From contig CDROCS010001231.1 in the NCBI GenBank assembly GCA_977020255.1, positions 124,001 through 176,096 of the forward strand: 52,096 bases of DNA. The letters run 5' to 3'. Origin of the DNA: Obrimoposthia wandeli. Lineage: Eukaryota. Position 1 is the first letter of the stretch; every line of letters starts with the position of its first letter. Below are positions 6,401 through 25,797 of the stretch, piece after piece. The translations under genes and the position numbers were made by a program. The notes beneath the pieces were generated by a model, which saw only the letters and a list, made by a program, of their open reading frames with translations, did not search any database and was not told where the DNA came from.

Positions 6401-7074
6401 TTATTTGTTAAATACGTTATCAATATATATTTACATTCACATTTGTATAAATTTTATTGTTTACAAGAAAATAGTTATATTTATTTGATAAATACTTCAA
6501 TAAATTCCTCTAAACAATAATTATGTACATTCAAATTTCAAACACTTCTAAGTTTAACAAGAAAATTGTTGTATTTATTTGATGTTTTTATAAAAAATTA
6601 TAAATGAAATATTCAGAGATGATATTTTTTTGTTGTGTAACGTGTGGAAAGTCTTCACTTAATAATACTGTTTTAGGTGAAAATATATACAATTTATATC
6701 CATTTGGTTTCCCATTCCCAGGATTTCGAAAATATATCACCAATGCCATTTCCGAACAGAATATTATTATCTGTTCTGTTGTGTAAATGATCTTTCCAAA
6801 GAATCTGGAAGGAAATTTATCTGGATTTTAAAATCCTAAATACTCATATGTCACCTAATTTGACAATTTTTGAAAATAAATCATAAAAGCTTTTGTAGAT
6901 GTGTTGGGAAAATATATTAACTATTTGTTTAAAAAAGAAAAATAAAAATATAAAATTTTTAAAGAAATAAAAGAAAAAAGGGAATTAATTAATTGAAAAT
7001 TAATTGGGAACTTTCCTTAATTAGGGAAAAGTTCCGATTTTTAAAATTGTGCACTTTGGCATTTTGTATATTCA

Positions 7075-7126
7075 ATCTCCGACGGGAAAAAAGCCCGTTT
7101 CGCCCTGCCGGGCTCATCAGGGAGAT
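7075..7126 (-). ncRNA. Type I hammerhead ribozyme (antisense, U3 of 5' LTR)
   Basis: Minus strand reads AUCUCC-CUGAUGA-GCCC-GGCA-GGGC-GAAA-CGGG-CUUUUUU-CCCG-UC/GGAGAU: intact core, perfect stems I (6 bp), II (4 bp), III (4 bp plus A-U), GUC triplet. Predicted cut between 7081 and 7080. Confidence 0.95.
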
Positions 7127-7129
7127 GGC

Positions 7130-7177
7130 TTGTTATCTCTAACTTCGCGGTGGATTCCGCGAAGCCAGAGATAACAA
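7130..7177 (-). other. 21-bp RNA hairpin abutting the hammerhead (also in the 3' LTR, 20031-20078)
   Basis: Minus strand UUGUUAUCUCU-GG-CUUCGCGG-AAUCCA-CCGCGAAG-UU-AGAGAUAACAA; two A/C mismatches on + become G-U pairs on -. Confidence 0.75.
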
Positions 7178-7695
7178 TAATAAAGCCAGGGAAAAGAGGG
7201 AAAGATTCCCCTTTCATGTGCCGACGAATATCGTCGACATGTGGTGTTAGTGTGCGCAAGTGCACCATTCACACACACACACACTCACTCAACATTAACA
7301 CATCACTCAACTCACTCATTCACTCTCACTACTCACTCAATCGCTCACACAATCCCTTGTTCACTCACTCTCCCTACTCACCTATTCTTTGTGCATATGT
7401 GTGTGTTTAATTTGGCATTTTACACCTGCCCAGAATTTTGAATGACGGTGAAATTTCCCGGCTGCACATGTGTGTGTGTGTGCAGAGCCGGGAAATGCCA
7501 GTTTCCTCTGCCCAAATCTCTTCTCCACACCATGTCTGGTAGTGATTCGGGCAGGCAGCGAGGATTGTTAATGGGGACTACACACTGCCGGTTTCCCACC
7601 TGCCCATCTGCTTACAGATTTATAGACACGCAAGAAGGAAATTGCTTCATAAATTTTTCACAATTTATAAAGACAAAATTATTAAATACAAAAAG

Positions 7696-7997
7696 CGAAT
7701 TATTGAAACTATTTTGAATTATATATCGAATTTATGCAATCGAATTATTGAAACTATTTTGAATTATATATCGAATTTATGCAATCGAATTATTGAAACA
7801 ATTTTGAATTATATATCGAATCTAGGCAATCGAATTATTGAAACAATTTTGAATTATATATCGAATTTATGCAATCGAATTATTGAAACTATTTTGAATT
7901 ATATATCGAAATTATGCAATCGAATTATTGAAACAATTTTGAATTATATATCGAATCTAGACAATCGAATTATTGAAACTATTTTGAATTATATATT
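7696..7997 (+). repeat. 45-bp tandem array (~6.7 copies) inside 5' LTR
   Basis: Unit CGAATTATTGAAAC(T/A)ATTTTGAATTATATATCGAATTTATGCAAT; units 3 and 6 share a CTAG variant. Confidence 0.95.
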
Positions 7998-8082
7998 ACA
8001 ATTTTGAAATACAACTACAATTTTTAGGATCATGATTTTGATTAAATAAATGTTGTTTGCAAGTTTTTGGACTTTTAACAAT

Positions 8083-8096
8083 TGGTGAGCCCGAAG
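8083..8096 (+). promoter_or_regulatory. Primer-binding site (tRNA identity uncertain, Trp- or Ile-like)
   Basis: TGGTGAGCCCGAAG 2 nt after the 5' LTR; TGG complements the tRNA CCA end. Confidence 0.8.
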
Positions 8097-9118
8097 AGCG
8101 GACACACAAAGGTAATTTTGTTGCGTTTTGTTTTTGTTCTTATTGTTGTTATAAGTATATTTACTTTTAAAAAAAAATTTAAAATAGAATTTATTTTCAA
8201 AAACTGTAGTGTAGTATTTTTAATACATTTGTTGATAAATACTATATTTTGAATAAGGTCCCTAAAGGTTTGTAATATTAAATACGTTGTAATTCATTTT
8301 TAATAAGATTATACTGTATTTTTGGAAAAAAAATTATACTGTATATATATATATAAAAATTTTATTTATTTTTTTTAATAATTTCTTGATTATAATAATT
8401 AAAGTAAAGTAAAAATACTTTGTGGTACATACCACCAAATATTTATCGGGGTTTTATTGTTATTTTTGAGGACAAGTACATTGTCTTTAACTATTAAAGT
8501 ATAAATTTAGGACAAATAAGAACACATTTATAAAATAAATTTTTGCAAACGTGTTATTGAGTAAAATAATATCGATTTAGAATTTTCACAAAATTTATTT
8601 TAATATTTTTACTGATTCAGGTTGGAAATAAAATACACTAGGGTTAGCAAATTAACAAATTTTCATAGTTTTTGAAACAGTAGTTTTTGATTCAAAATTA
8701 TCCTGTGGTTGATTGAAAATATATTAATAGTTTATCTTGACATAATTTAAAATTAACAAATTTTCAATATCGGTTTTTAAAATAAAAATAGTGATAACAG
8801 ATTTTACTTAAAAATATATTAATAAGTTAGAAATTTTTCTATTACTTTGGTTGAAAGTGCAGCTCAAATCACGGTAATCGATTATCATAAGGCCGAGCTG
8901 TATTTTAATCACATAGCAGAAATAATTCCTGACTGTTTTTAAAAATTCATTTATTTAAAATATAAAATTATTTAATCGTTTTCAACAAAACTAGACAACA
9001 ATATATAAACACATAAATTAATTTTCGACCCAGTACGCAGGATAATAGTGAACAATACACAAAGATTTCAAAATCTAAACGTAGTGCTAATCTTCACTGG
9101 AGACGCATTCAGACTAGA

Positions 9119-12100
9119 TTGGTAAGAACTAACACAAGTGAAACACTACCACAGAGACCTAAATCCCAGATAAATTTTAGAACAAATAACGAATTTTTCC
9201 CTGAAACTCCGTTAGTTCACCAACACACGGATCGCTTAATTTCAACCGACTCTGAAAACCAAAACCTAACATCAAATTCAGATACAGAAAGTTTATCCTT
9301 ACCACAAACATCTGACTCAGACAACTCGTCAGAAACATCAGAAACAGTGGCAGAACCAGTACCACCTAACATAGAAATAAATAACGAACAAATAAACGAA
9401 GTACCTCAAATGGCAAATCATAGATTAAACATACCACTAGACGCATTTAATGGTGATAAATCATCTTTACCAGAATTCTTGAATAGATATGATTCTTTTG
9501 CTCAAGCATTCGAATGGACAGACCAAGAAAAACTTAGAGTTTTTCCAGCATACCTAAAAGGCACTGCCCTAACCATTTATAGAGGACTAACAAATCTACA
9601 AAAAGACACATGGGAACACTTAGTCCAGCATTTCCAAAATATGGTTTTAGGAGCACAGTCCGACCAGAACTACATAAATCAATTTAGACAACGAGAGCAA
9701 CATGTAGGAGAACCCACAAATATATTCGCAGTCGAATTACGACGACTTGCATTAAAATCTTTTCCCGAAATAGAAGAAGCACAAAGAGAACGATTACTTT
9801 TACATCAATTTTTACATGGATTAAATAACAAAATTCGAGATCACCCTGCCTTACTAGAAGTAGAAAATTTTCAACAGGCTATAGGAAAAGCTCAACTAGT
9901 AGAAGCAAGACTGAATATGATACAGCAAACCGAAGTTTCAGCATTATCTTTTGAAAAAATAGAACGACCACAAACGCCACCAAACTACAACCAATCTAGG
10001 AATTTTAACCAAGATACTCAATATAATTTTCAAAATCCTCAACAATTTAGACCACCAATAAATAATTTTTATAGAAACCAGACAAACAGAAATTTTGCAA
10101 ACTCACAATTTACACAAAGATTTTTTCAAAAATGCACAAATTGTGGACTCCAAAACCATACAATAGAAAATTGTCGAAAATTAAGTAACATAAAATTTTG
10201 CAGATTTTGCAAAAAAGACAATCACACAATTGAAACTTGTAGAAAATTAATAAATAGACAGAGTAATAATACACTACCAAGGAATAATAACTTCAATAAA
10301 CCAAATAATTATGACAATAATCAAAATAGATATTTTAATAATGATACAAAATTTTGTAAGATTTGTAATATGAAAAATCACAACACCAATGACTGTGGAA
10401 AATTAAACACAATGATGAATCAATTTGGAAACACAACAATAAAACAACAACCACAAGTTCAAAAAACAGTACAATTCAGTACTCAAGATCAACAATATAC
10501 CCCAAGAAACCCTATTCACACTATAGAAAATACAGAAACAACTCCAAACACAGACGAATTAGCATTGTTAAAATTACGACTTAAAGAAATACACCAACAA
10601 TGCCATAACAATGAACCACAAACAGATAGAACAAACTTACAATCCGAATTTGGAGACATGTTTAGAGATAGTTGTTTGACATTACAAAAAAATAAATATA
10701 CAATCACAAAAACAAACCAAACTACTCAAACACAAGAAAAGAAAGTAAAACACAAGAAAAATCATAAAACAATAAAAAATCAAAAAACTAAAATTTTTAA
10801 GAATACAAATAATCTTAATAAAATGATGAAAAAATTATGGAAAATTATTCAGATAATATTAATAATATGTCTAATTATGAACATGATAAAACCAATTAAT
10901 GCTTTAGAAGCATATGATTGTTCAAAATATAAAATTCAAAATAAATATTCTTTAATGGATTTACAGCAATGTGCAGACGCTGACCCAAATGAGGTAAAAA
11001 TCCAAAATACTAAGTTGTATCAAGTATATCAGGAAACAGATTTCATATATGCAGAAGTTTTCGAATGTAGAGTACATGTAGAGACATTTATAACATATTG
11101 TGGACAACATAGTCACAATTCAATAGTAAAACCAGCATTAGGAAAAACACCAATAATAGTTGACGCTTTAAATTGTAAAGATGCTTTCGCAACAGGAGAA
11201 TTGAGAATAGATAGAGAAATTAAAGTCCGAGCGGCGAAAAATAAAATAATTCAACAAATGATATCCGTTGTAGGTACGATTAAATCTGATGGAGAATGTA
11301 CAACAGGAACTTATGTAGTAATGGGAGTTAAGCAAAGTGGTTTAGTAGTTATTAAAAATTTTGAAGTCGAACTAAGAACTTTCAAAGCAACATTCGACCC
11401 TTCTACAAACACAATGGTAACAATGCCATTTTGTGAAGCAAACATAGGTCACTGTAACACGGGTTCTTCAATACTTTACTACAAAGTAAAAATCGATCAA
11501 TGTAAATTAATACATTTAAAATCAGAAACTTTTCAAATAATTCAAGGAAAAAGATTTAGAGATGATCCGGAACTAGATCAACAAATTCCAAAGGACATAC
11601 ACAAAATATATAGAACTAGAAAAATACGTAAAACACCAACTCCAACTATATTAATGTCTATTGAACAAGGTTCAGGAATGCGATTTATTAAAAAGAAAGA
11701 GGAATCCCGATGTGGACACTCTGTTTATACAACTAATTATAAAGGAATATATTTAAGTAATGAAAAAATACATAATGCAAAAACGACACCAACTAAATTT
11801 GATATTAAAAATTATGATTATTTTAACAATAAATTAGATTATTTTTATCACAAAGGACTAATGACAATAGAAGCAATATATAGAGAAACCATAATGAATG
11901 ATTGTAAATTAAATCAGGAAATATTAAAAACGAAATTGGCAATTATTGCAACTAACCCAGAATTAATAACACCATTATTACCATTAGCTGACGGTACTTT
12001 TGGAAGAGTAATGGGAGAGGTGTTATACACTTATCAATGTAAAAAAGTAATAGTTAACATAAGAAATCATCAAAAATGTACAAAAGAATTACCAATTTCT

Positions 12101-13405
12101 TACAAAAATAATTCATTATTTGTAGAACCAATCACTAGAATCATACTTTTTAACACTTTTAGCATAAAAGAAATAAACTGCTCAAACATAATGGCACCTC
12201 ATTATCAAATTTCAAAATATATTTGGATTTCACTTCCAAGAAGAGATATTGTCGCAGAACCACAAAAATTACAATTAACCACTCTCAGCAACGACATCAA
12301 TATACAATCAGATAACGAATTAAACACAAAAGGAATTTATATACAGGAAGATATAGATAAGTTAAGAAAAGAAATTTTATTTCCACAAATAAGATCCAGA
12401 ATTTTAACACAAATCATAGAAAGATCAGTACCTGACGGAATTAGCCGTCCCGATTACGACTTATTACTTTCTCCAAATCATTTTATAAAAGCCACTAAAA
12501 ACACCATGTCAAAAATATGGGGTAAATTTTTAATTTTTGGACAAGCATTTTCTGGATTAGTTGGAATATATGCTCTATTAATTTGCTTTAAGATTCTTCT
12601 AAGTCAAATTTTATCAACATATTATATTTATAAAGTTGGAGGATTAACATGGAAATTAATCTTAGGATGTTTCCCATTTTTGGCAAAATTCCTTATTTTT
12701 AATCATCATCAAAACATAGTAAACACATTATCAAATGAAATGCGAGAAACAAATATACAAAAAATTACAAGTACCAAAGAAACAGAAAAAACGGAATCTT
12801 CACAATATCCTGATTTAGAAAAATATATAGATAAAACAACTATACAAAAATCAACTGCACCAACAATATATACAATAAATCAAAAAGATAACGATAAACG
12901 ACCATATGTAAAGGTAGAAATTAACGAATATAAACTTAAAGCTTTAATTGACACAGGATCAAGCGTAACAGTTTTAGACGAATCTTTCTTAAAAACACAA
13001 CAAAAATTACTTCTTCTTAAGGAAAATAGTCAAGTCACAGCAGCAAACGGTCAACCCGTAGATATAATAGGAAAATTAGACTGTCTTTTTAAAATAGGAA
13101 ATAAATTCATAAAAATACCTACAAGAATAATGAAAAATTGTCCTTGCCAAATGATCATAGGAATAGATACATTAAGAAGATTAGGAAATAATTTCCACTT
13201 TGATTTTGAAAAAAATCAAATAAAAGACATTTACAGACCTAACGCCAAAGATGAATACGAGTTAGAAATAAAAGGAGATATCATTCTCCAACCAAGAACA
13301 GAAACAATGTTACAACTAGAAACTAACATAATCACAGAAAAATATGTATTATTTGAACCTTATAAATATCAACAAGAAACCTTGAACTACTTTTGCCAAA
13401 TATAA
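9119..13405 (+). CDS. gag-env-pro: Gag-Env-protease polyprotein (1428 aa)
   Basis: Gag capsid-like region, three CX2CX4HX4C knuckles (10133, 10199, 10355); signal-peptide-like MMKKLWKIIQIILIICLIMNMIKPINA (from 10823); Cys-rich ectodomain starting LEAYDC (10904); hydrophobic segments ~12520-12700; aspartic protease LIDTGS (D at 12950). Frame opens on TTG; first ATG at 9410. Confidence 0.93.
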   Translation: MVRTNTSETLPQRPKSQINFRTNNEFFPETPLVHQHTDRLISTDSENQNLTSNSDTESLSLPQTSDSDNSSETSETVAEPVPPNIEINNEQINEVPQMANHRLNIPLDAFNGDKSSLPEFLNRYDSFAQAFEWTDQEKLRVFPAYLKGTALTIYRGLTNLQKDTWEHLVQHFQNMVLGAQSDQNYINQFRQREQHVGEPTNIFAVELRRLALKSFPEIEEAQRERLLLHQFLHGLNNKIRDHPALLEVENFQQAIGKAQLVEARLNMIQQTEVSALSFEKIERPQTPPNYNQSRNFNQDTQYNFQNPQQFRPPINNFYRNQTNRNFANSQFTQRFFQKCTNCGLQNHTIENCRKLSNIKFCRFCKKDNHTIETCRKLINRQSNNTLPRNNNFNKPNNYDNNQNRYFNNDTKFCKICNMKNHNTNDCGKLNTMMNQFGNTTIKQQPQVQKTVQFSTQDQQYTPRNPIHTIENTETTPNTDELALLKLRLKEIHQQCHNNEPQTDRTNLQSEFGDMFRDSCLTLQKNKYTITKTNQTTQTQEKKVKHKKNHKTIKNQKTKIFKNTNNLNKMMKKLWKIIQIILIICLIMNMIKPINALEAYDCSKYKIQNKYSLMDLQQCADADPNEVKIQNTKLYQVYQETDFIYAEVFECRVHVETFITYCGQHSHNSIVKPALGKTPIIVDALNCKDAFATGELRIDREIKVRAAKNKIIQQMISVVGTIKSDGECTTGTYVVMGVKQSGLVVIKNFEVELRTFKATFDPSTNTMVTMPFCEANIGHCNTGSSILYYKVKIDQCKLIHLKSETFQIIQGKRFRDDPELDQQIPKDIHKIYRTRKIRKTPTPTILMSIEQGSGMRFIKKKEESRCGHSVYTTNYKGIYLSNEKIHNAKTTPTKFDIKNYDYFNNKLDYFYHKGLMTIEAIYRETIMNDCKLNQEILKTKLAIIATNPELITPLLPLADGTFGRVMGEVLYTYQCKKVIVNIRNHQKCTKELPISYKNNSLFVEPITRIILFNTFSIKEINCSNIMAPHYQISKYIWISLPRRDIVAEPQKLQLTTLSNDINIQSDNELNTKGIYIQEDIDKLRKEILFPQIRSRILTQIIERSVPDGISRPDYDLLLSPNHFIKATKNTMSKIWGKFLIFGQAFSGLVGIYALLICFKILLSQILSTYYIYKVGGLTWKLILGCFPFLAKFLIFNHHQNIVNTLSNEMRETNIQKITSTKETEKTESSQYPDLEKYIDKTTIQKSTAPTIYTINQKDNDKRPYVKVEINEYKLKALIDTGSSVTVLDESFLKTQQKLLLLKENSQVTAANGQPVDIIGKLDCLFKIGNKFIKIPTRIMKNCPCQMIIGIDTLRRLGNNFHFDFEKNQIKDIYRPNAKDEYELEIKGDIILQPRTETMLQLETNIITEKYVLFEPYKYQQETLNYFCQI
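10904..12780 (+). other. env: Chuvirus/Tas-type (herpes gB-like, class III) glycoprotein domain within ORF1
   Basis: Motifs AYDC..YSL...C, ECRVHV...YCGQHSH, GEVLYTYQC...C..ELP....F..P.TRI, GIY..EDI..LR..I.FP match my recollection of the chuviral glycoprotein family found in Pao/Anakin and nematode elements; not confirmed by search. Confidence 0.8.
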
Positions 13406-15350
13406 TTTGTAAAATAAAAAACAACACAATACCAATCAGAATCCTAAATGCAGACATTAATGAAATTCATCTCAAGGAAGGAGTACGTCTTGGAAAAATA
13501 AGTGTTATTCAAAATATTGAATTAATAGATAATGATAAAATAGAAGATAAATCTACGATAAATTTTAACGATATCAAATTAAATGATTATGAAAAATCAA
13601 AACTTAAAACTTTAACAGAAAAATATGATGTAATATTTGCTAAAAATGAATACGATTTAGGTCGAACAAATTTGATAAAACATAATCTTCCGTTAACAAC
13701 AAACACAGCAATAAAACAACGACCCTACCGAATTCCATATGCCTACAGAGATGAGGCTCAAAGACAAATAAAATGAATGTTAGAAAATGAAATTGTTAGA
13801 AGACGTTTTTCTGCATGGACATCACCTGTTGTTTTAGTAAAAAAGAAAGATGGTTCTTTGAGATTTTGCGTAGACTACAGAAAACTAAACGAAGTCACTC
13901 ACAAAGATACTTATCCACTGCCAAGAATTGATGAAATATTAGACAAACTAAAAAATGCACAAGTATTTACAACTTTAGATTTACAGAGTGGATACTGGCA
14001 AATAGAAATTGAGGAGTCAGATAAATATAAAACAGCTTTCTCAACAGGAGAAGGATTGTATGAATTCAATGTCTTACCATTTGGATTAACCGGAGCTCCA
14101 GCAACATTTCAGAGATGTATGAGCCATATTTTAATGGATGCAGATCACGTAATGGTATATATCGATGACATTCTTATTTTTTCGAAAAATTTTGAAGAAC
14201 ATTTAAAATATTTAGAAAACGTATTCTTAAGATTACAGGTAGCAGGATTAAAACTAAAACCAAAGAAATGTGAATGGATAAAAGATAAAGTAAATTACTT
14301 AGGACATGCTGTATCAGCAAAAGGAATACAACCAGACGAGAGTAATGTAGAAAAGATTAAAAATTTTCCAATCCCAAAAACAGTAAAAAATATATAGGAA
14401 TTTTTAGGGCTTGCAGGATATTATCGAAGATTTATTAGAAATTTCGCACAAATAGCAATACCATTAAATAAACTTATTAAAAAAGATGAAAAATTTGAAT
14501 GGGAAAAAGAACAACAAGAATCTTATGAATATTTAAAACAAAAACTAATCGAAAAACCTATACTTAGATATCCTAATTTTAATAACTCATTTTTAGTTAT
14601 GACTGACGCCAGTGGTTATGCGTTAGGAGCAGTTTTAGGACAACAGGAAAATAACGAAAAAGATCATGTGATAGCATATGCGAGCAGAGGTCTTAAAAAA
14701 CATGAAAAGAATTACTCAACGATAGAAAGAGAATGCCTAGCTATTTGTTTCGCAATGGAACATTTTAAACATTACTTATTAGGTCGAAAGGTTTATGTTT
14801 ACACAGATCAAAGACCATTACAATGGCTTTTAAATCATAAGGATACAACATCTAGATTAATGAGATGGGCATTGATTTTACAAAAATATGATATTGAAAT
14901 AAAATATAGAAAAGGAAAATCTAACGCTAATGCAGATTGTCTATCACGAATAAGAGAAGAAATAAACGAAATAACTGCAAATGACATCGAATTAAATCTT
15001 TTTACAATAATTCAAGCTAAATATGATAAAAAAATAATTACTAAACTTCAAAGCAAAGATAATGAAATTCAGCAAATAACTAAATACATTAGCACAAACG
15101 AAGTACCAACAGATGAAAAATTAAGAAAACATTTAAAAATATACGAATCACGATACAAATATAGTAATGAAATATTATATTATTTAAATGACAAAAATCT
15201 ATATTCACTAGTTATTCCTAAAGAAATTCAGTGTCAATTACTTCTTCAATATCATAATGGAGCCCTAGGAGGACATTTATCATCAAAAAAGACACATTCA
15301 CGATTAAATTTAAAATACTATTGGATTGACATGAAAGAAGATGTAAAAAT
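13393..15350 (+). CDS. pol: Pol: reverse transcriptase, RNase H and integrase zinc-finger start (interrupted in this sequence)
   Basis: WTSPVVLVKKKDGSLRFCVDYRKLN, PFGLTGAPATFQR, YIDDILIFS, TDASGYALGAVL, ERECLAI, NANADCLSR. One frame throughout with in-frame TGA (13774) and TAG (14395); -1 shift needed near 13391 (from PR) and at the A5 run 15345-15349 (into WCKTCEIC). Confidence 0.93.
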
Positions 15351-17666
15351 TGGTGTAAAACATGTGAAATATGTCTTAAACGGAAAAATACTTTACGTAC
15401 CACAAAAATACCTTTAAAGCCAATACCTTATCCATCAGCCCCCATGGAAACTGTTGCCATGGATGTAATGGGACCATTACCTGAAACACCCCGAGGAAAT
15501 CGATATATAATAGTATTTTCTGATTATTTTACAAGATGGCCAGAGGCTTTTCCAACACATGATCATAAGGCTGAAACCATCGCGAAGGTTTTAGTCGAAA
15601 AAATTATTTTTACTTTCGGTGCACCCCGAAAATTATTAACCGACAAAGGTCCTGAATTTATAAATAATGTATTAGCGTCAATAGCTGAAATTTTTCACAT
15701 AAAGACGATCAATACAACACCATATCACCCTCAAACTGACGGGTTAGTAGAAAGATTTAATAGAACCCTCGAAGATATGATGGCATCATACACAAACAAC
15801 AATCAAACAGATTGGGATTTACACATACCTCCATGCCTTTTTGCATATAGAACATCAGTACATGCATCCACAGGAGAAACACCTTTTTATCTTATGTTCC
15901 TCAGAGATCCTCAAATGCCTATTGACCTAACATTACTACAACCTACTACACAATATTTAGAAATACCTGAATATAAAATAGAAATTAGAGAAAGAATAAA
16001 ACTAGCATTCGAAAAAGCTAAACTATTTGTAAAAAACATACAAGAAAATTACAAAGAATATTATGATAGAAGAACTAAGCCATCAAATATAAAAAGCGGA
16101 AGTAAAGTGATGATTCACAATCCACAAATCAATGTAGGATTGTCTCACAAATTATCAAAACCATACAAAGGACCATATACAGTCATTAGTACCAACGGAA
16201 CCAACATAACAGCTAAACTAGATAATGAACCAAAATCAAAAGAAATAAGAGCACATATAAACAGATGTCGAGAAATACCTGAGGAGAATACAAAAGTAAA
16301 AAGTCACAAATATAACTTAAGATCAACTAATGATAATACAGTTCTACAAATGTTGACAATAAAAAACTCACAAAAACAAAACAAAACTATTTTGAGTCAT
16401 CAAACCAGAAATACAATAAAAATATCAATAAAAGAAATTGGTAAAATAATGATGTTATTGATAATATATTTTATAATAAAATATAACCTACTGAAAGTAA
16501 ACGCAACAAACATAAATGACAATCAATCAATCATACAACAACAAACAAATAAATACGACTCAACAACTCATCTCATAAAAAATTTTGGATTAATAACAAT
16601 AATACCTAAAATCACATCAATAAAGTTAAAAATTTCTCTTTTTACAAACAAAACAGGAAATGTGCAAATCACACAAACAGATAGAAAACAAAATATAATT
16701 ATTTCAGGAATAAAATCACAAAAATATACAATACCATTTTTAAGAACAGAAACACAATATAAAATAAGAATTAAGTCGAAATTAAAAAATATAACACTCT
16801 ATGAAAGAATTATAGAAACTCACATATACCTAGCATCAATATTAAAAACAACAGCAAAATATATATCAAAACATAAAATAATGATAAAATGGGAATTTCA
16901 ACTAAAAATAGATGACTTAGATAAAGCCCTCATTAGAATTAGATATAGAGGACATAATGCTAATTTTTGGAAAGACTCAGAAAAACAATTAGAAAATACA
17001 CAAACTAAAACAAATTTAACCATAGAAAATATAAGATATCCAGAGAAAATAATAATAGACAATAGAGAATGCGTAATCACTAATAAACCAATAATGTACA
17101 GACAATGGAGTCAAAAGTTTGAAAGTTATAAAAATCTAACAAAATTAACAATTTTAGGAAATAAGATATCCAAACTATATCAACCTACAATTTTTTGTGG
17201 TCGTTGGTCAACAGTAAAAATTAAGAAATATGTTAAAGATATAACCACAAAACAATTGCTACATACCACAACATTTACATCAAAAATTTACAGAGTTACA
17301 AATCAAGTTGAAATTACGGAAAAAATAAGAATTAAATTAAAATTAAAAACAACAGAAATAATATCATATAAATCATTTAATGAAAGTTTAAAAATGCACT
17401 ATAGTAAACAAGAACATTCAAGGAATGAAAATAAAGAAGAACTTATAATAATAGTTATAGTAATCGAAATAATTACATTTATAAATCAAATATCATGGAA
17501 AATGTTAATTTTGAAACATACAAAAACGATAGAAACAAAACAACGAAAACACTTTTGTGGGCCCCCAGGCCCTTTTACTATTTATATTATCCCCAAGGAT
17601 GATAATTCTTCAGAATTATCCATAAATACTGTAATAGAAAATAGAAAAAGAAATATAACACAATAA
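15351..17666 (+). CDS. Integrase core and GPY/F domain fused in frame to a predicted secreted/membrane protein (signal-like segment, FN3-like repeats, TM)
   Basis: CEIC zinc ligands, AMDVMGP / LTDKGPEF / GLVERFNRTL (D,D35E), KPYKGPY. Then MMLLIIYFIIKYNLLKVNA (16449), YTIPFLRTETQYKIRIKSK, IKWEF...RIRYRG...W, hydrophobic LIIIVIVIEIITFI (~17442-17500). Integrase call is firm; FN3 call is inference. Confidence 0.85.
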   Translation, partial: WCKTCEICLKRKNTLRTTKIPLKPIPYPSAPMETVAMDVMGPLPETPRGNRYIIVFSDYFTRWPEAFPTHDHKAETIAKVLVEKIIFTFGAPRKLLTDKGPEFINNVLASIAEIFHIKTINTTPYHPQTDGLVERFNRTLEDMMASYTNNNQTDWDLHIPPCLFAYRTSVHASTGETPFYLMFLRDPQMPIDLTLLQPTTQYLEIPEYKIEIRERIKLAFEKAKLFVKNIQENYKEYYDRRTKPSNIKSGSKVMIHNPQINVGLSHKLSKPYKGPYTVISTNGTNITAKLDNEPKSKEIRAHINRCREIPEENTKVKSHKYNLRSTNDNTVLQMLTIKNSQKQNKTILSHQTRNTIKISIKEIGKIMMLLIIYFIIKYNLLKVNATNINDNQSIIQQQTNKYDSTTHLIKNFGLITIIPKITSIKLKISLFTNKTGNVQITQTDRKQNIIISGIKSQKYTIPFLRTETQYKIRIKSKLKNITLYERIIETHIYLASILKTTAKYISKHKIMIKWEFQLKIDDLDKALIRIRYRGHNANFWKDSEKQLENTQTKTNLTIENIRYPEKIIIDNRECVITNKPIMYRQWSQKFESYKNLTKLTILGNKISKLYQPTIFCGRWSTVKIKKYVKDITTKQLLHTTTFTSKIYRVTNQVEITEKIRIKLKLKTTEIISYKSFNESLKMHYSKQEHSRNENKEELIIIVIVIEIITFINQISWKMLILKHTKTIETKQRKHFCGPPGPFTIYIIPKDDNSSELSINTVIENRKRNITQ

Positions 17667-17855
17667 TCAAAATTTTTTAAAAACCGTTTAAGTAACAAAA
17701 AATGTTAGTACTATTATGTAAATCTAAATTAATTAGGAAATAGAATAAAAATTTGATATATATATTTTTAAAGACGATTTAATGAAATAATATTAAAATA
17801 AAATCACCAGGAAACGCATCCTGAAATTTAATAATGGTTATTTTTAGATATAAAA

Positions 17856-18251
17856 ATGAACAGATTGGCAAAAGTTTGTAAAAAATGCAAAAAATTAGAG
17901 AAAAAGATTCGAGATGTTTCCAGACAGCATGACGACTACTATATAAAGATCACAACTCAAAATGAATCACTGAAACAGTTAATAAAACAAAGTGTGGAAG
18001 AAAAATTGAATAATGATTTAACAATTGACGAACTAGAAGGGAGATTGACACATAGTTTTGGCAGAATAGACAATTTAATACCACAAACTTTAAGTCAACG
18101 ATCAACTATAGCCTCATTAAGAAGACAAATGATGACCTATAGCGACATGATAAACTTTTATTTGACCATTAATCCTACTATCCCAACTAATACAACACTT
18201 GATGATGGATATGACTCGGATATGAACATTGGTGAACAAAATTCTGGTTAA
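17856..18251 (+). CDS. Accessory ORF, 131 aa, predicted coiled coil
   Basis: ATG-initiated intact ORF inside the element; CKKC followed by heptad-like LEKKIRDV...LKQLIKQSVEEKL...LEGRL. Confidence 0.65.
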   Translation: MNRLAKVCKKCKKLEKKIRDVSRQHDDYYIKITTQNESLKQLIKQSVEEKLNNDLTIDELEGRLTHSFGRIDNLIPQTLSQRSTIASLRRQMMTYSDMINFYLTINPTIPTNTTLDDGYDSDMNIGEQNSG

Positions 18252-18419
18252 ATTATAATCATACATCCTTCTTTTGTACAAATTGTCTAATTTTTTTTTA
18301 ATAAGTTTATTTTCATGACAAATCCCACATACTGCATGGATAAGACTGATATTTTTATAACTTTAAGACTGTGAAATAATTGTATTATTTTATTCAACTA
18401 ACAAATCTATTAAAGCAGA

Positions 18420-19592
18420 ATGGATAACAATCACCTGGATACGACTCCAGACCAGCTCACTCGGTCAGATCAAACAAAAAGCACAGCAAAAATAGAAAGA
18501 GGAAAAACGGAAAATATGCCAGAAAGGTGGTTTTTAGCAAAATTCTTGTATCAAAAGATGCGTCAGTTTAGCATTGCATACTTTAGAAACAACGGAGGAA
18601 GAAAAATGTTTTCAAATCAAACATTTCTTCCTAATAATAAAATTACCAATAAAATTACCACAGAAGAAAGAACTAGCGCACTTATTTTTTCCAATGAAAA
18701 AAGACCAACCCATATGGCTCTCAGTGAAATATTCCCCAACATTAATTGTGAAAAAATATATATTCACGTGGCACTAGGAGTAGCCCATTTAAAAACCAAA
18801 TCAGATAAGACATTAAACTTTCTGATGATAGGAAATCACACCTACACCTTACAAGCAGCTCAATTAGAAAATCAATATAGCATAAAAATAGGAAGAGGAC
18901 CAAATCTATTATTTATAGAAAAAATAAGAAAAGCAGAAGAACCTCAACAAATAGCCCTTTTTGAATTAAAAAAGAAGCCAGCAATTTTATTCCTCGATTG
19001 CGAAATGGTGATATCAGTAGATAAACAGCCAGTGTTAGCAAGTGTTTCTATTATAAATTACATAGGTAACGTAATTATAGATACACTGTGCGTAACTAGA
19101 AACAGAGTAAGAAATTACGTTACTAGAATAACTGGACTGTCAGATAGAAAGTTACAAGGATGTAGAGATGCTGATGAAGTAATTGAGGAAGTAAAAAACA
19201 TTGTGTATGGTAACATCATCGTAGGTGTGGGATTAACAAACGATTTAAAAGCTTTACGCCTACAGAAATGGATGTTATTCAACATTGTTGATTTAGGAAT
19301 ATCCAAAAGCATAAAATCAGAACTAAATCACAATCACCCAAATATTGGACTCGCCAACATGGTGCGGAAATACTTAAATATAGAAACACAAAAAGGAGTT
19401 CACACTAGCATGGAAGATGCAAATCACACCCGAAAAATTTTCATAATGAAGGAGGAAATGTTGATTAGAGAGTTTGATTTGACCGAGGTGATGAATCCAC
19501 CATCTAGCGAGAACAACCCCAGTTCATCGTTCTCGCATAAGACCGGAAACTCGGAGTCCGGTACACAAAACTCCCCGATTTTGTTGGATTAA
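18420..19592 (+). CDS. Accessory DEDDh 3'-5' exonuclease (REX4/ISG20-like) with ~190-aa unknown N-terminal domain
   Basis: ExoI LDCEMV (18996), YVTRITGL, ExoII GVGLTNDLKAL, ExoIII HTSMEDA (19401); all four acidic residues and the His are present. Confidence 0.9.
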   Translation: MDNNHLDTTPDQLTRSDQTKSTAKIERGKTENMPERWFLAKFLYQKMRQFSIAYFRNNGGRKMFSNQTFLPNNKITNKITTEERTSALIFSNEKRPTHMALSEIFPNINCEKIYIHVALGVAHLKTKSDKTLNFLMIGNHTYTLQAAQLENQYSIKIGRGPNLLFIEKIRKAEEPQQIALFELKKKPAILFLDCEMVISVDKQPVLASVSIINYIGNVIIDTLCVTRNRVRNYVTRITGLSDRKLQGCRDADEVIEEVKNIVYGNIIVGVGLTNDLKALRLQKWMLFNIVDLGISKSIKSELNHNHPNIGLANMVRKYLNIETQKGVHTSMEDANHTRKIFIMKEEMLIREFDLTEVMNPPSSENNPSSSFSHKTGNSESGTQNSPILLD

Positions 19593-19782
19593 GGTAGTAT
19601 TGTTATTATTTTATTTCTGTTTTCATTCTTGTCTAAATTTTTAACGATATTTAACCAGACATGATTGTGATTAATAAAACATTGATCAGTTGTAACATAC
19701 AAACAACACTAGGTAACAATAGAAACAAGACAAAATAGTTTAACTAATAATTAAGATAAAAATTATGATTCTGAGGACAGAG

Positions 19783-19802
19783 ACTTTTATGACCCGGAGG
19801 AT
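19783..19802 (+). promoter_or_regulatory. Polypurine-tract-like plus-strand primer region
   Basis: Purine-rich ...GACCCGGAGGAT immediately before the 3' LTR TG; short and imperfect. Confidence 0.5.
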
Positions 19803-19975
19803 TGTTGGGAAAATATATTAACTATTTGTTTAAAAAAGAAAAATAAAAATATAAAATTTTTAAAGAAATAAAAGAAAAAAGGGAATTAATTAATTGAAAA
19901 TTAATTGGGAACTTTCCTTAATTAGGGAAAAGTTCCGATTTTTAAAATTGTGCACTTTGGCATTTTGTATATTCA

Positions 19976-20027
19976 ATCTCCGACGGGAAAAAAGCCCGTT
20001 TCGCCCTGCCGGGCTCATCAGGGAGAT
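19976..20027 (-). ncRNA. Type I hammerhead ribozyme (antisense, U3 of 3' LTR)
   Basis: Identical to 7075-7126; predicted cut between 19982 and 19981, 12,901 nt from the other site. Confidence 0.95.
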
Positions 20028-20598
20028 GGCTTGTTATCTCTAACTTCGCGGTGGATTCCGCGAAGCCAGAGATAACAATAATAAAGCCAGGGAAAAGAGG
20101 GAAAGATTCCCCTTTCATGTGCCGACGAATATCGTCGACATGTGGTGTTAGTGTGCGCAAGTGCACCATTCACACACACACACACTCACTCAACATTAAC
20201 ACATCACTCAACTCACTCATTCACTCTCACTACTCACTCAATCGCTCACACAATCCCTTGTTCACTCACTCTCCCTACTCACCTATTCTTTGTGCATATG
20301 TGTGTGTTTAATTTGGCATTTTACACCTGCCCAGAATTTTGAATGACGGTGAAATTTCCCGGCTGCACATGTGTGTGTGTGTGTGCAGAGCCGGGAAATG
20401 CCAGTTTCCTCTGCCCAAATCTCTTCTCCACACCATGTCTGGTAGTGATTCGGGCAGGCAGCGAGGATTGTTAATGGGGACTACACATTGCCGGTTTCCC
20501 ACCTGCCCATCTGCTTACAGATTTATAGACACGCAAGAAGGAAATTGCTTCATAAATTTTTCACAATTTATAAAGACAAAATTATTAAATACAAAAAG

Positions 20599-20900
20599 CG
20601 AATTATTGAAACTATTTTGAATTATATATCGAATTTATGCAATCGAATTATTGAAACTATTTTGAATTATATATCGAATTTATGCAATCGAATTATTGAA
20701 ACAATTTTGAATTATATATCGAATCTAGGCAATCGAATTATTGAAACAATTTTGAATTATATATCGAATTTATGCAATCGAATTATTGAAACTATTTTGA
20801 ATTATATATCGAAATTATGCAATCGAATTATTGAAACAATTTTGAATTATATATCGAATCTAGACAATCGAATTATTGAAACTATTTTGAATTATATATT
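20599..20900 (+). repeat. 45-bp tandem array inside 3' LTR
   Basis: Same unit order and variants as in the 5' LTR. Confidence 0.95.
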
Positions 20901-23281
20901 ACAATTTTGAAATACAACTACAATTTTTAGGATCATGATTTTGATTAAATAAATGTTGTTTGCAAGTTTTTGGACTTTTAACAGATGTGTTGGGTTGGGG
21001 TAGTGTCGGATTAAGACATGCGCTTTGGAGGCAGCAGCCCACGACCCTCCAGATATTATATGGCAGTTTTTTTCCCTAAAGCAATATATTGCTTTTAAAA
21101 CATTACTTTACTGTCAGTTCACGTCAACTATCAAGTGTTTTAAGAAAATGAAAGTTCTACAAAGTTGCTCACTTTATTTATTTTGTTTTATCGGCAGATT
21201 ATTTCGTTTTTAATTGACAAGCGGATAGTATATGCAGGTACGTTTGGGTAATAGTAGTTATCTATTATTATTTGATAGCATAAAATTGCGTAAAGCAAAT
21301 ATGTGAATTATACTTTTCTTACCAATTTATAAGTTTTTATTATTTTGTATTACACTGTCAAACTAGTATAATATGTCTGGTAAAATATTGAATTATTTGA
21401 TTATTGTTACGAGTTGATTGAATTTACCGTTGTCGTAAACAGAAGAAAACACCTTATATAATTCGACATATTATACAAAATAAGTAGCTGTATTGTAACA
21501 GCTTACAAAAACATTTTCTCAAAATATCAATTTAGTAATATTGTTATCATAATATCATATTCTTGCTTACCAAAATATTAAAAGAGGTATTTCTAACATT
21601 AACTTTTAGTAATCGGACGTTCAGATAGGATGTCTGCAGAAACTATAGCCCATGGACCTACAATATAATAATCCAGCCCTGTGTTCGGGACAAAAGCTAG
21701 CTACCGAAACCAGAAAATAAATCTGGGGTCTCTCTATTTGCAGGTCACGCATTCTATCCCAGAACTACCGTACATTGTAATTTCACCCGAATTTCTAAAT
21801 GGGGATTATGGACCTAAAATTATCAGTAACATATTTTATCAAATATAAATCTTTTAAATTGTAAAAATTAACAAAGCAAAAGGCGATACATATAAACTGT
21901 GGGGAGAAACTATGTCTCATTATTTTTTAAAATAATTTAATCTATAATTTTTTGAGTATTTAAAAATTATTCGAACTGCCTGGACTATATTATTCAGTAA
22001 TTTATTCCAATGCTATTGCAGATTTTCATGGTAAATGTAACAGTCAATTTCATTTATAAAAGTTTATTGTCCAAAACTGATTATACAAATCAAATGTCGG
22101 TTATTTGTAATACATATATTTCATGGGAGAGGCACAAAAGTATGTCTTTCTTCTGAGACGATTTTTTACACGATAGAAGATAATCAGAACACGAGCTAAT
22201 TGTGAAATAGGATACTATCCTCCTGATTGAATGTTATTTTATATTTATTAAGAGGAAATAATAATTACCCAAAAATTAACTATGGCCTATTGCAAAGTGA
22301 TATGTAGCTTTTGAATTTGTTATTGATTTTTATTTTAAGTCAATAGGTTATATTTATAATTACATAATAGCTCAAAGTGGAAGAGATCTAAATCAAATGG
22401 TGACAGGAAAGAACAAAATTCTTTCAACAATGAAGCTTTCGTTAAAAATGTCTCTCCGGTATTTTGATCACTTTATGAACTATCTTACTTTATGGTCATG
22501 TAATAATCTCAAAATATCAATTGCATGCTAGAAATGAAATTAACTTTCAAAATGATTTAATAAGTTGATTAAATGCCATATTGGCCTCACGTTCCAAAAT
22601 AACCATTCACCTTTACCATCTAAGAAATTAATTATTTTTTGGATGAACCCGTTTACTGTCACACTTCAAAATGCAGCTCATGTGGTTTAAATTTATAGAA
22701 GACTTTGAAGTATAGAAATCACGCAAATCCCTAGACTTTTAATCCTGTAAATAATACTCAAATCCATGCAGTTCCCTCTGCACCGAATGAGTCAACCAAG
22801 ATTTACATGAGGACGCTTTTAAAATATAAATAAAATACCTGATTTTAAAATTTTGTCATTGCCTACATTAACATGAGATTTTATTAATTTGGGAATAAAT
22901 TATTCATTATTCTAGCTTCCAAAGTAAATTTTTTAAACTGCCAGAACTAAGGTAACCTAGAATTGATCTTCAACTTGACTGTTATTTTGATTTTATAACA
23001 CCCCATGAAATTCAATAATAAAACTATTCGACGTTTTGTAGTAATATAGTAATGTAATCTAGAGAATAACAAATAAACAACATGTGCATGTGTAAACAAA
23101 TTTCAGGTAGAAAAGATTACATCATAGCTTGAGGGAGACAGAAATAAGTGTATAGAAACTAGGCATAAATAATCACTGACACACACAAATACAGCCAGTG
23201 ACCAGATTTAATACAAGTGCATCTGGTATTGCACTTGAATGTTTGGTGCACACATAATAAGCTCAGCACATACAAACATTG

Positions 23282-25797
23282 TCAATCCTTTTTATCAGCC
23301 TCATCATCTTCATCTAAAATAATTGTAAAGTCACCTGCAGCGTCTTCTTCGTCATCCTTCTCCTCTTCTCCATCATCCTTCTTTTCCTCTTCTCCATCAT
23401 CCTTCTTCTCCTCTTCTTCATCATCCAGCTCCAGAGTGAATGAACCCTCTGCAACATTATCCTCATCTTTCTCTACGCCTTCTTCTTTTTTATCAGTTTC
23501 TTTCTCTTTATTTTCTTTCTTTGTCTCATCTTCCTTTTTATCAGTTTCTTTATTTTTGTCATCTTCCTTTTCTTCAGCATCAGTTTCTTTCTCCTTATTT
23601 TTTTTCTTTGATTCATTTTCCATTTCTTCAGTTTCTTTTTCTGTCTTCTTATTTTCTATCTTTTCATCCTCTTTGTCATCACCTTCAGACTCTTTCTTCT
23701 TATCAGAACTCGTTTCTTTATCATCGGCATCATCGTCTGTTTTCTTTTCTGTTTCTTCTTCATCATCAAGTTCCAGAGTAAAAGAATCTTCAACATCGTT
23801 CTCTTCATCTTTTTTAGTTTCTTTTTTCTCATCTTCTGACTTTTCTGTCTCCCCTTCCTTATTTTCAGACTTATCACTTTTAGTCTTTTTGTCCTTTTTC
23901 TTCTTTTCCTTGGGTTTTTTAGTTTCTTCTTTTTTACCTTTATCTTCCTTTTCTTCATCTTTAGTTTCTTTTTTCTCCTCTTCTTCCTCCTCTTCATCTT
24001 CCTCTTCTTCGCTATCATCATCCTCGTCTTCTTCAGAATCTCCTTTTTCTTTCTTATCATCATCTTCGATATTTTCTTTGTTTTCTTCCGATTCTTCGGA
24101 TTTTTGACTCTAAAAATAAAGATGTGATTATTGGCTTTCATAGAAAACATTAGAAATAAGTACGTACGGGTGCAGGAACAGGTCAAGCAATTGCATTCGC
24201 ATAATTACAATCTAAATAATTGAAACATGCAAATTCGAGTTCAACACGAAATGACATAAACTTTTTCCTGTAGATTACCTTCTTTTCTTTCGCGTTCTTT
24301 TTCTGAATGGAAATTAGTTTTGACAGTTAAACATAAAAATTGTAAATTAATACATCACATTACAAAAGGAACAAGTGAAATAAATATAAAATCAATTTCG
24401 CGCACTCCGATGCGATTTATGGGGTCCTTCAAAAAGTAAAAGTTATTTTTTAATAAATTATATAATGAACTGTAAAAGTTTTAATAAAAATTGTAATTTG
24501 TGTAATTTATTAAAAATATTTTTTTCAACGATTATGCTCAAAATAAAATTAATTTTTATAATCAAAACCTATTTCAAAACGGGAAAAATTTTACAAGTGT
24601 TATCATTTGATTCTGGTGCGGGAAAATAAAATGGGTCATTGGTAAGAGATATTTATGGTTTTTATTTAGCTGAGGAAACATGTAGTTTTTCTCCTGCTCT
24701 AGAGAAATGTGTAAATTATCTTTCGGAAATATTTATTGAATTAGAAAAACCGACCCCGACCTTAACGGCTCGACAAGAATTATCCCGGGTGTGTATCGAA
24801 TTGGAAGAGTTTTCAAAATCCCAGAATCAGAAATCAGAAACGTCTTATAAAATGCAATAATATGTTAGTTGAGACCTTAACATCTGCACTACGACGTTTG
24901 CTTCATCTCCAAAATTGGGTGCAAAGTTTCTAAAAATAGATTTTTCGCGAATAGAAGTGTGAAATGACGACTAAATAATATTTTCTGGAATTTCCCTTAT
25001 AGATTCTTAATTTATGAACTGTTAGCTTCTATTTGAGCTATAACGGACCTCAAGACGGAAATCGGTTCTTTATGAAAATGAGAACGAAAGAAGGAAAGAT
25101 CAATAATATTTCGGTTTTATTACATTACACAGATATTTGTGGGGTTTTAGAGTGTCTAACTGAATGTTGGGGAACTATTTTAACTATACAGTCCCATATA
25201 CTAATTCAGTCAACATCAAATCAAAAATACTCCGAGATTTTGGGTTTCGATCTCCTCGAGTTCCCTTTTTGAGGCACATGAGGATAATTGGTCCTCAGCT
25301 AATCTGAGTACTAATATATAGATTAAATACGAATGAAAATAACAGTTCACAACTATTAGTATTGGCGCAAAATATTTCCAGGGAGAATATGAAGGATTTC
25401 TATTGCGTACCTCTTCCGCTCCGGGGATCTTGAGAAGCACCTCCACATCTTCAGATTCATTGGCCACTGACATGTCTTCGAAGTCCTGACAAAAGAAATT
25501 CATTCAATTCACTGCAAATCCAGTAAAGTACCCCAATATATTCGTCGTCGAGAAAAACATAAGGCGGCAGAGCTTTTGGATTTACACTGCGGATTTTCTT
25601 TAGCACAGTGTCCTTTGTTTCCTGATTGTTTACAAAGCAAATATCAATTTCTGTAAATTCGATTTTACGACCACAAAAAATCATCCTCAACAAGTCTTGT
25701 TTCTTCTTTATCTAAAAGAAAAATAAATATGGAAAAGAATTGGGATACAAACCATTTGATTGCCCGATGTACTTGATACATACACTTTGATACTCAT
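23282..25797 (-). CDS. SH3BGR: SH3BGR-family (glutaredoxin-fold) protein with long Glu/Lys/Asp-rich C-terminal tail
   Basis: Exons 25797-25753 (MSIKVYVSSTSGNQM), 25711-25532 (IKKKQD...EIDI...LPPYVFLDDEYIG), 25485-25411 (DFEDM...), probable 24302-24279 and 24109-23282 (275 aa acidic, stop TGA). All phase 0 with GT-AG. N-terminal domain is firm; joining of the tail exons is inferred. Confidence 0.8.

What the first reader, a model, noticed from the sequence alone, without database searches (positions are those of the whole stretch)
10904..12780. Chuvirus/gB-like class III fusion glycoprotein in a Ty3/gypsy element
Cys spacing and motifs resemble the Jingchuvirales glycoprotein family, which I know mainly from Bel/Pao elements (Anakin, Tas), whereas insect errantiviruses use baculovirus F-like env. 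A gypsy RT with this env suggests an independent capture. A basic patch RTRKIRK (minimal R-X-X-R) could be a furin site.
Basis: partly seen in the sequence, partly recalled or inferred. Interest (0 to 1): 0.7.

Follow-up and report, generated by a model that had tools for sequence, protein, structure and literature searches.

The report
Retrotransposon with chuvirus-like fusion protein
A recently inserted but partly broken jumping gene in an animal genome carries a virus-like membrane-fusion protein in the middle of its main protein, a known arrangement, plus a second surface protein and an RNA-trimming enzyme that were not found described for such elements.

Summary
10904-12780 encodes a class III, gB-fold fusion glycoprotein of the chuvirus-like family: Pfam PF24664 E 5e-87; AlphaFold pLDDT 91.6; top structural matches are herpes gB (PDB) and chuvirus G (BFVD). 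It lies in a full-length 14.1-kb Ty3/gypsy element (6902-20983; LTRs differ at one base and one indel; 4-bp TSD). After integrase comes a second signal-ectodomain-TM module (FN3-like, moderate evidence), then a coiled-coil ORF and an ISG20-like DEDDh exonuclease ORF. Relatives share this layout. Env and RT trees largely agree, so the env is old in this lineage, not a fresh capture. The furin site is not supported. gB-type env in gypsy elements and the GAG-ENV-POL order are published (PMC13524379); the FN3-like protein and exonuclease were not found in print. pol is broken at four places in this copy. Most likely working: one multi-pass polyprotein cut by signal peptidase into Gag, Env-Pol and a second surface protein, for enveloped cell-to-cell spread (inferred).

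The parts
6902..8080 (+). 5' LTR (1179 nt, TG...CA), with an internal 45-nt tandem array; preceded by TSD GATG at 6898-6901
8083..8094 (+). Primer-binding-site-like TGG motif 2 nt after the LTR; tRNA not identified
   Evidence: no tRNA gene in the window; no matching PBS in the paper's table
8112..8113 (+). Candidate splice donor (AAG|GTAATT) just after the PBS; inferred from sequence only
9410..10819 (+). Gag (first ATG 9410) with three CX2CX4HX4C knuckles at 10133-10396
   Evidence: similar to the gag regions of relatives (P0013 carries PF03732 below cut-off); no Pfam gag hit on its own
10820..10903 (+). Internal signal-peptide-like hydrophobic segment ending in INA, predicted cleavage before 10904
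   Evidence: hydropathy; same kind of junction in 17 of 17 other env-bearing ORFs listed; no signal-peptide predictor was run
10904..12523 (+). Env ectodomain, class III gB-like fold, 14 Cys, long central helix (model residues 304-351)
11612..11632 (+). Basic patch RTRKIRK in a variable low-confidence loop; not a conserved furin site
12524..12700 (+). Env membrane anchor (strong segment 12524-12631) and a weaker hydrophobic helix (12641-12700)
   Evidence: conserved in relatives
12893..13189 (+). Aspartic protease, in frame with Gag and Env
   Evidence: Pfam PF13975 E 1.5e-08, PF00077
13360..15387 (+). Broken stretch of pol: frame change near 13360-13387, in-frame stops at 13774-13776 and 14395-14397, frame change near 15345-15387
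13837..14310 (+). Reverse transcriptase (YIDD), Ty3/gypsy type
   Evidence: PF00078 E 1.4e-40; Ty3 RT E 1.7e-61
14500..14889 (+). RNase H
   Evidence: PF17917 E 6.9e-40
15214..15731 (+). Integrase zinc finger and core
   Evidence: PF17921, PF00665
16422..17666 (+). Second membrane module in frame after integrase: signal-like segment 16422-16502, ectodomain 16503-17426 (FN3-like lead), TM 17427-17513, short tail
17856..18251 (+). Small ORF (131 aa), coiled-coil-like by weak Pfam hits only; YAG 8 nt before its ATG
18420..19592 (+). ISG20/REX4-like DEDDh 3'-5' exonuclease ORF with its acidic and His motifs present; YAG 1 nt before its ATG
   Evidence: PF00929 E 5.4e-07; ISG20 E 2.8e-09
19803..20983 (+). 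3' LTR (1181 nt), preceded by a short purine run; followed by TSD GATG at 20984-20987

Best explanation
This is the env of a GAG-ENV-POL Ty3/gypsy endogenous retrovirus-like element. Shown: element structure, domain order, fold, conservation of the layout in relatives. Inferred: the lineage makes one polyprotein that threads the ER membrane four times. Gag stays cytoplasmic; the internal signal before LEAYDC puts Env into the lumen; the Env TM returns the chain so that PR-RT-RH-IN are cytoplasmic; a second signal and TM display an FN3-like protein. Signal peptidase would release membrane-tethered Gag, an Env-Pol piece, and the second surface protein. Pol would then be packaged through the Env tail rather than as a Gag-Pol frameshift product, and be freed by the viral protease. 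Trimeric Env fuses the particle membrane with a target cell as gB or chuvirus G do, with no need for furin cleavage; the FN3-like protein most likely serves attachment. The two 3' ORFs are probably read from spliced RNAs, the exonuclease trimming RNA ends or degrading RNA that triggers host defence. This copy's pol is broken, so it moved with help from another copy, broke after insertion, or the breaks are assembly errors.
For: Fold: PF24664 E 5e-87; model pLDDT 91.6, pTM 0.74; herpes gB best in PDB, Foldseek E 5.6e-13, VIA Z 11.5, rmsd 7.3, 422 aligned; chuvirus G best in BFVD, E 1e-38. Layout: env and RT lie in one uninterrupted ORF in P0003, P0005, P0009, P0015, P0017, P0151 and in 3 of 3 fetched loci that span both (L001, L002, L004). 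Signal-like junction before Env in 17 of 17 other ORFs listed, many without a Met before the hydrophobic core. Hydrophobic-ectodomain-hydrophobic module after integrase in 7 of 7 relatives whose ORF runs well past integrase (L001, L002, L004, P0003, P0005, P0015, P0151). Exonuclease ORF in both loci with long downstream sequence (L001 35%, L002 29% identity). Env and RT trees share 6 of 7 splits (RT alone) or 5 of 7 (RT plus RNase H; the conflicts have support 31 and 55). Precedent for env inside one polyprotein: Atlas virus Gag-Pol-Env (PMC9094657, passages).
Against: No expression, protein or fusion data. Topology rests on Kyte-Doolittle hydropathy; the weaker second hydrophobic helix after the Env TM, if it crossed the membrane, would put the protease in the lumen. 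L003 has a stop at the gag/env junction (1 of 4 loci), and P0152 ends just after integrase. Protein hits holding both env and RT are uninterrupted by ascertainment. The FN3 call is moderate: Atlas scores 0.89 and 0.84 are leads only, Pfam gives no fn3 hit, the profile was built from units picked by an FN3-like motif, and the single-sequence model failed (pLDDT 31.5). This copy has an in-frame MM just before the Env signal, which would also suit a spliced env mRNA.
Confidence: 0.6

Rival explanations
1. Same parts, different expression: a spliced RNA (donor near 8112) skips gag and starts at the Met pair before the Env signal, so Env-Pol is made apart from Gag, and the open gag-env frame is incidental or minor.
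For: Donor-like AAG|GTAATT after the PBS and a T-rich 0.9-kb leader; in-frame MM at 10823 with a TTTTTAAG upstream; a stop at the gag/env junction in L003; the 3' ORFs look spliced (YAG within 2 nt of the ATG in 5 of 6 against 74 of 858 background ATGs).
Against: No YAG within 30 nt before 10823; P0002, P0005, P0010 and L002 lack a Met before the hydrophobic core in the 32 residues shown; the junction is open in 3 of 4 loci.
Confidence: 0.2
2. The env is a recently captured chuvirus gene fragment (an EVE) that rides in the element without a role in its spread.
For: Chuviral glycoprotein EVEs often lie beside gypsy fragments without clear capture (PMC10084718, passages); this copy's pol is broken.
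Against: In-frame placement with signal and TM intact; 14 of 14 cysteines kept; same placement in relatives whose RT is only 48-72% identical, with matching trees; one env clade.
Confidence: 0.05
3. Env and the second membrane protein act without free particles: they fuse or bridge neighbouring cells (soma to germline), or this pol-defective, env-intact copy serves the host or helper elements, for instance by interference.
For: All four breaks fall within 2.0 of 8.3 kb of coding sequence (chance about 0.05, post hoc), while gag-env-PR, the post-integrase module and the exonuclease stay open; LTRs are almost identical.
Against: Near-identical LTRs and a TSD mean recent insertion, not long domestication; p of 0.05 is weak; the breaks could be assembly errors; relatives keep the whole polyprotein.
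Confidence: 0.15

Closest known systems
HSV/gB-type errantiviruses with GAG-ENV-POL order (Chary and Hayashi, eLife, PMC13524379; seen: abstract, sections 5 part 1, 6 part 2, 10, 14, 22, term searches, rows of supplementary file 1)
   Same: Ty3/gypsy pol, gB-type env related to chuvirus G, env between gag and pol, ectodomain between two hydrophobic segments, furin site not always conserved, env co-diverging with pol.
   Different: The main text has 0 occurrences of 'fibronectin', 'exonuclease', 'polyprotein', 'signal peptidase', 'splic' or 'accessory'. This copy is not intact.
Nematode non-canonical ERVs (Sacco et al. 2022, J Gen Virol; not held; seen only as cited in PMC13524379)
   Same: Env-before-pol order in a metavirus, env attributed to RNA-virus capture (title as cited). 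A continuous gag-env-pro-pol ORF is my recollection of the abstract, not seen.
   Different: Host phylum here is not determined; whether that paper reports a post-integrase membrane module is unknown.
Chuviridae G and Anakin (mosquito BEL/Pao with chuvirus glycoprotein; PMC10084718 passages; PMC7642597 search listing only); Tas of Ascaris (passage in PMC9094657)
   Same: Same glycoprotein family (PF24664); 28% identity to Tacheng tick virus 4 G (P0021).
   Different: Gypsy RT, env upstream of pol and fused in frame; the env clade is separate from the one DUF5641-linked row tested.
Herpesvirus glycoprotein B (class III fusogen)
   Same: Overall fold, Z 11.5 over 422 residues.
   Different: About 10% identity, rmsd 7.3; shorter; no conserved furin site.
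Bdelloid rotifer LTR elements with DEDDy exonuclease ORF3 (PMC5408684, passages)
   Same: An exonuclease ORF between pol and the 3' LTR.
   Different: Here DEDDh, ISG20-like, and in addition to env rather than in place of it.

Membership tests
Ty3/gypsy (Metaviridae) LTR element | LTR pair with TG...CA ends, TSD and PBS | tested here: met
Ty3/gypsy (Metaviridae) LTR element | PR-RT-RH-IN order and gypsy-type RT | tested here: met
   Pfam order; Ty3 RT E 1.7e-61, far above caulimovirus, foamy and HIV RT. No Bel/Pao RT was in that comparison; YIDD rather than the YVDN described for nematode belpaoviruses.
Ty3/gypsy (Metaviridae) LTR element | Placement in a named gypsy clade | not testable with these tools
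   No GyDB or Repbase reference set was on hand.
Class III (gB-like) fusogen, chuvirus-like family | Family profile match above cut-off | tested here: met
   PF24664 292.8 bits against 27
Class III (gB-like) fusogen, chuvirus-like family | gB-like fold with long central helix | tested here: met
Class III (gB-like) fusogen, chuvirus-like family | Signal peptide, ectodomain, C-terminal TM anchor | tested here: met
   hydropathy and conservation; prediction only
Class III (gB-like) fusogen, chuvirus-like family | Trimer formation and membrane fusion activity | not tested
   Only a monomer was modelled; activity needs the bench.
GAG-ENV-POL HSV/gB-type errantivirus (PMC13524379) | gag, gB-type env, pol in this order inside LTRs | tested here: met
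GAG-ENV-POL HSV/gB-type errantivirus (PMC13524379) | Full-length RT and integrase in continuous ORFs (the paper's 'intact') | tested here: not met
   Four breaks in this copy; met by relatives L001, L002, L004
GAG-ENV-POL HSV/gB-type errantivirus (PMC13524379) | Host in Nematoda, Bryozoa or Platyhelminthes; cysteine-bridge type C1/C2/C3 | not testable with these tools
   Host unnamed; figures not readable; model coordinates not available
Furin-cleaved envelope | Conserved R-X-K/R-R in the loop | tested here: not met
   0 of 21 rows; minimal RxxR 4 of 21
Fibronectin type III domain (post-integrase module) | Profile or fold match to FN3 | tested here: inconclusive
   Atlas top named hits fn3 at 0.89 and 0.84; profile A4 hit 41 PDB sequences at E up to 10, best 0.0016, all named proteins that I recall as FN3-containing, but units were motif-picked; no Pfam fn3 hit; model failed
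DEDDh exonuclease (ISG20/REX4-like) | D-E, D, H-D motifs | tested here: met
   Alignment to ISG20; kept in L002, one D to E in L001

The most novel reading that the evidence does not exclude
A distinct lineage of enveloped Ty3/gypsy viruses whose single polyprotein is cut by signal peptidase into Gag, Env-Pol and a second, FN3-like attachment protein, so that Pol is packaged by the Env tail, entry uses a two-protein machine (gB-like fusogen plus receptor binder, reminiscent of herpesviruses), and a spliced ISG20-like exonuclease counters host RNA defence. The env's nearest named relatives being chuvirus G proteins leaves open exchange in either direction between this lineage and Jingchuvirales.
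Probability: 0.3. Interest if true: 0.75.

Novelty: new variant of a known kind. Interest (0 to 1): 0.47.

Why it matters
What would matter is the rest: a conserved second surface protein and a nuclease would make these elements complex viruses rather than retrotransposons with one added gene, and a Gag-Env-Pol polyprotein implies a way of packaging Pol that differs from the Gag-Pol fusion of retroviruses. The env clade beside chuvirus G also bears on where class III fusogens of negative-strand RNA viruses came from.

Tried and rejected
Sequence search of the env against PDB gave nothing useful (1 hit, E 0.26); only the fold search showed gB. Furin site rejected. Programmed frameshift at 13360-13387 rejected: 3 of 3 loci and six proteins are open there. 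No genome is held for the window. Five runs hold part of the element, four of them 86-88% of sampled words, all one sample that may be the window's source; no RNA holder listed; no read-level view of the breaks was obtained. Homologue searches for the post-integrase module found none or only P0154; PDB sequence search none; pairwise similarity between the modules is weak; the single-sequence model was not used for a fold search. The small 3' ORF has no significant match to those of L001 and L002. No Rfam match. The first big env tree dropped 31 of 150 rows including most polyproteins and was redone (22 of 150 short fragments dropped); support labels printed were shifted by re-rooting and are read. 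No complex prediction of Env with the second protein was obtained. Earlier findings of this scan: none. Literature searches for an FN3 domain in gypsy elements and for a DEDDh/ISG20 ORF found no paper on this by listing; subscription papers are mostly missing.
Full report
Observation. The interval 10904-12780 lies inside one open frame, 9017-13405. It matches Pfam PF24664, Monjiviricetes_fusion, at E 5e-87. Position 10904 is the Leu of LEAYDC, directly after a hydrophobic segment (10820-10912), and a second hydrophobic region at 12524-12631 closes the ectodomain. A profile-free search of 1.84 billion representatives found 1323 proteins at E up to 0.001. In an alignment of 118 of the homologues, all 14 ectodomain cysteines are at least 90% conserved. 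AlphaFold on that alignment gave pLDDT 91.6 and pTM 0.74 with a 48-residue central helix. All rows shown from the PDB fold search are herpesvirus gB, best E 5.6e-13; a second aligner gives Z 11.5, rmsd 7.3, 422 residues. In the viral library the best rows are chuvirus and chu-like glycoproteins, led by Tacheng tick virus 4 at E 1e-38. The class III, chuvirus-like identity is therefore established as far as computation allows.

The element. The env sits in a complete LTR element, 6902-20983. The LTRs are 1179 and 1181 nt, start TG, end CA, and differ by one substitution and one 2-nt indel in a microsatellite; GATG flanks both ends; a TGG primer-binding-site-like motif follows the 5' LTR. The insertion is thus very recent. 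The order is Gag (three CCHC knuckles), signal, Env, TM, protease, RT, RNase H, integrase. The RT's best solved relative is Ty3 RT, E 1.7e-61. Against the uninterrupted relative P0005, pol of this copy has two frame changes and two in-frame stops, all within 13360-15387. The flanks hold a multi-exon ALIX gene, an SH3BGR exon and Tc1/pogo remnants, which fits an animal genome; the phylum was not determined.

Env is fused in frame between Gag and protease. After integrase, still in frame, come a second signal-like segment, a 308-residue ectodomain and a TM. Two further ORFs precede the 3' LTR: a small one at 17856 and an exonuclease at 18420 that matches ISG20 at E 2.8e-09 with its motifs present. 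These are lineage features. The closest env hits are long polyproteins: env followed by protease in P0001, P0002, P0004, P0006, P0013 and by protease and RT in P0003, P0005, P0009, P0015, P0017. Of four metagenome loci, L001, L002 and L004 have env, protease, RT, RNase H, integrase and a terminal membrane module in one ORF of 2693-3703 codons; L003 is cut off inside env and has a stop at the gag/env junction. All 7 relatives whose ORF runs well past integrase carry the hydrophobic-ectodomain-hydrophobic module; P0152 ends just after integrase. L001 and L002, the two loci with long downstream sequence, both carry the exonuclease ORF at 35% and 29% identity; L004 has only about 500 nt past its ORF.

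The second membrane module. It is very divergent. Two independent Atlas queries, one from the window and one from L002, returned fn3 clusters as best named hits at 0.89 and 0.84, which the tool rates as leads. Nine units picked by an FN3-like motif were aligned; the motif was found in the window, L001, L002, P0003, P0005 and P0151, not in L004 or P0015. Their profile hit 41 PDB sequences at E up to 10, best 0.0016, named neogenin, fibronectin, Dscam, gp130, IGF1R and the like, which I recall as FN3-containing. This is partly circular, Pfam gives no fn3 hit, and the single-sequence model failed. FN3-like is likely, not proven.

Origin of the env. Among ten elements with both genes, RT identity to the window spans 48-72%, and the env tree shares 6 of 7 splits with the RT tree and 5 of 7 with RT plus RNase H, the conflicts having support 31 and 55. 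In trees of 132 rows (22 of the 150 hits dropped as fragments) and 46 rows, the 17 ORF-embedded envs plus two fragments form one clade with SH-aLRT 99.9 and 96/100; a 28-row group adds nine stand-alone glycoproteins, among them Tacheng tick virus 4 and Wufeng shrew chuvirus 2, with 99 and 99.9/100, and excludes the one DUF5641-linked row and a wasp EVE. So the env was acquired once, long ago, by this lineage, apart from the Bel/Pao-type row tested. The trees are unrooted and most rows are unnamed, so direction and donor are not shown.

Furin site. RTRKIRK lies in a variable, lower-confidence loop. A minimal RxxR occurs in that loop in 4 of 21 rows at different places, the full R-x-K/R-R in none, and about 0.9 RxxR are expected by chance in this protein. 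It is not supported.

Mechanism. A hydrophobic core, small residues and then xxA-Y/F-DC mark the Env start in 17 of 17 other ORFs listed, often with no Met upstream. This points to an internal signal cut by signal peptidase. With one TM after Env and a signal plus TM after integrase, the chain keeps Gag and Pol in the cytoplasm and both ectodomains in the lumen. Cleavage would give tethered Gag, Env-Pol and a second type I protein, so Pol would enter particles on the Env tail. Env would fuse membranes as other class III proteins do; attachment is the simplest role for the FN3-like protein. The 3' ORFs have a YAG within 2 nt of the ATG in 5 of 6 cases across the window, L001 and L002, against 74 of 858 background ATGs (post hoc, background not matched for composition, and in two cases the YAG is also the in-frame stop), and a donor-like site follows the PBS, so they are probably spliced. 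All of this paragraph is inference; no expression or activity was observed.

Comparison with the literature. Chary and Hayashi (PMC13524379; abstract, sections 5 part 1, 6 part 2, 10, 14, 22, term searches and rows of supplementary file 1 seen) report gB-type env as widespread in Ty3/gypsy elements, 114 gypsy elements found with mosquito BEL/Pao glycoprotein baits, GAG-ENV-POL order in Nematoda, Bryozoa and Platyhelminthes, an ectodomain flanked by two TM segments in some, and a furin site that is not always conserved. Sacco et al. 2022 described the flipped order in nematodes; the paper is not held, and a continuous ORF there is my recollection. So the headline is known. The eLife main text does not mention fibronectin, exonuclease, polyprotein, signal peptidase or splicing, and searches for FN3 or DEDDh/ISG20 in such elements found no paper on it by listing. 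Its figures, most supplements and the Sacco paper were not seen and may bear on this. Rotifer LTR elements with DEDDy exonuclease ORFs are a precedent (PMC5408684, passages).

Verdict. Real, correctly identified fold, known pairing. The added value is the conserved extended layout: single polyprotein, second surface protein, exonuclease. New variant of a known kind; interest 0.47.

Noticed in passing
P0015 residues about 105-300: A relative carries, upstream of env, a domain matching arenavirus nucleoprotein structures (best E 3e-4), in the region I recall as their exonuclease domain; so a different nuclease may have been taken up by the same lineage.
   Followed up: partly
L001:4745-5335; P0151 residues about 2088-2140: An extra signal-ectodomain-TM module (FN3-like in L001) sits between protease copies; P0151 has a further hydrophobic segment at a similar place.
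   Followed up: partly
P0002, P0003, P0006, P0013, P0151, L001, L002: Several relatives have two to six aspartic protease domains in the polyprotein, some after integrase.
   Followed up: no
L002:1501-3699; P0007 residues 9-70: Gag-to-env spacers of relatives hold extra domains: ubiquitin-like (E 6.6e-4) and a weak Bcl-2-like match (E 9.6e-4), both below Pfam cut-offs.
   Followed up: no
window 7693-7996 and 20596-20899: Each LTR holds a 45-nt tandem array of about seven units and a CA-rich tract.
   Followed up: no
window 20988-20994: The host sequence right after the 3' TSD repeats the LTR's first seven bases (TGTTGGG); chance or target preference.
   Followed up: no
window 35804-44228 (-): Multi-exon ALIX/PDCD6IP gene (BRO1 and V domains) with Tc1/pogo-type transposase remnants at 41037-42031 (+) inside it.
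   Followed up: no
window 23285-25711 (-): SH3BGR exon at 25460-25711 and a very acidic, lysine-rich ORF at 23285-24109 that may be its tail.
   Followed up: no
P0005 (HBK71150.1): A full Gag-Env-Pol-type polyprotein is filed under a Flavobacteriaceae MAG; most likely a eukaryotic contig binned in error.
   Followed up: no
window 49829-50209 and 50945-51301: Two degenerate tandem arrays with units of about 95-100 nt and 30 nt.
   Followed up: no
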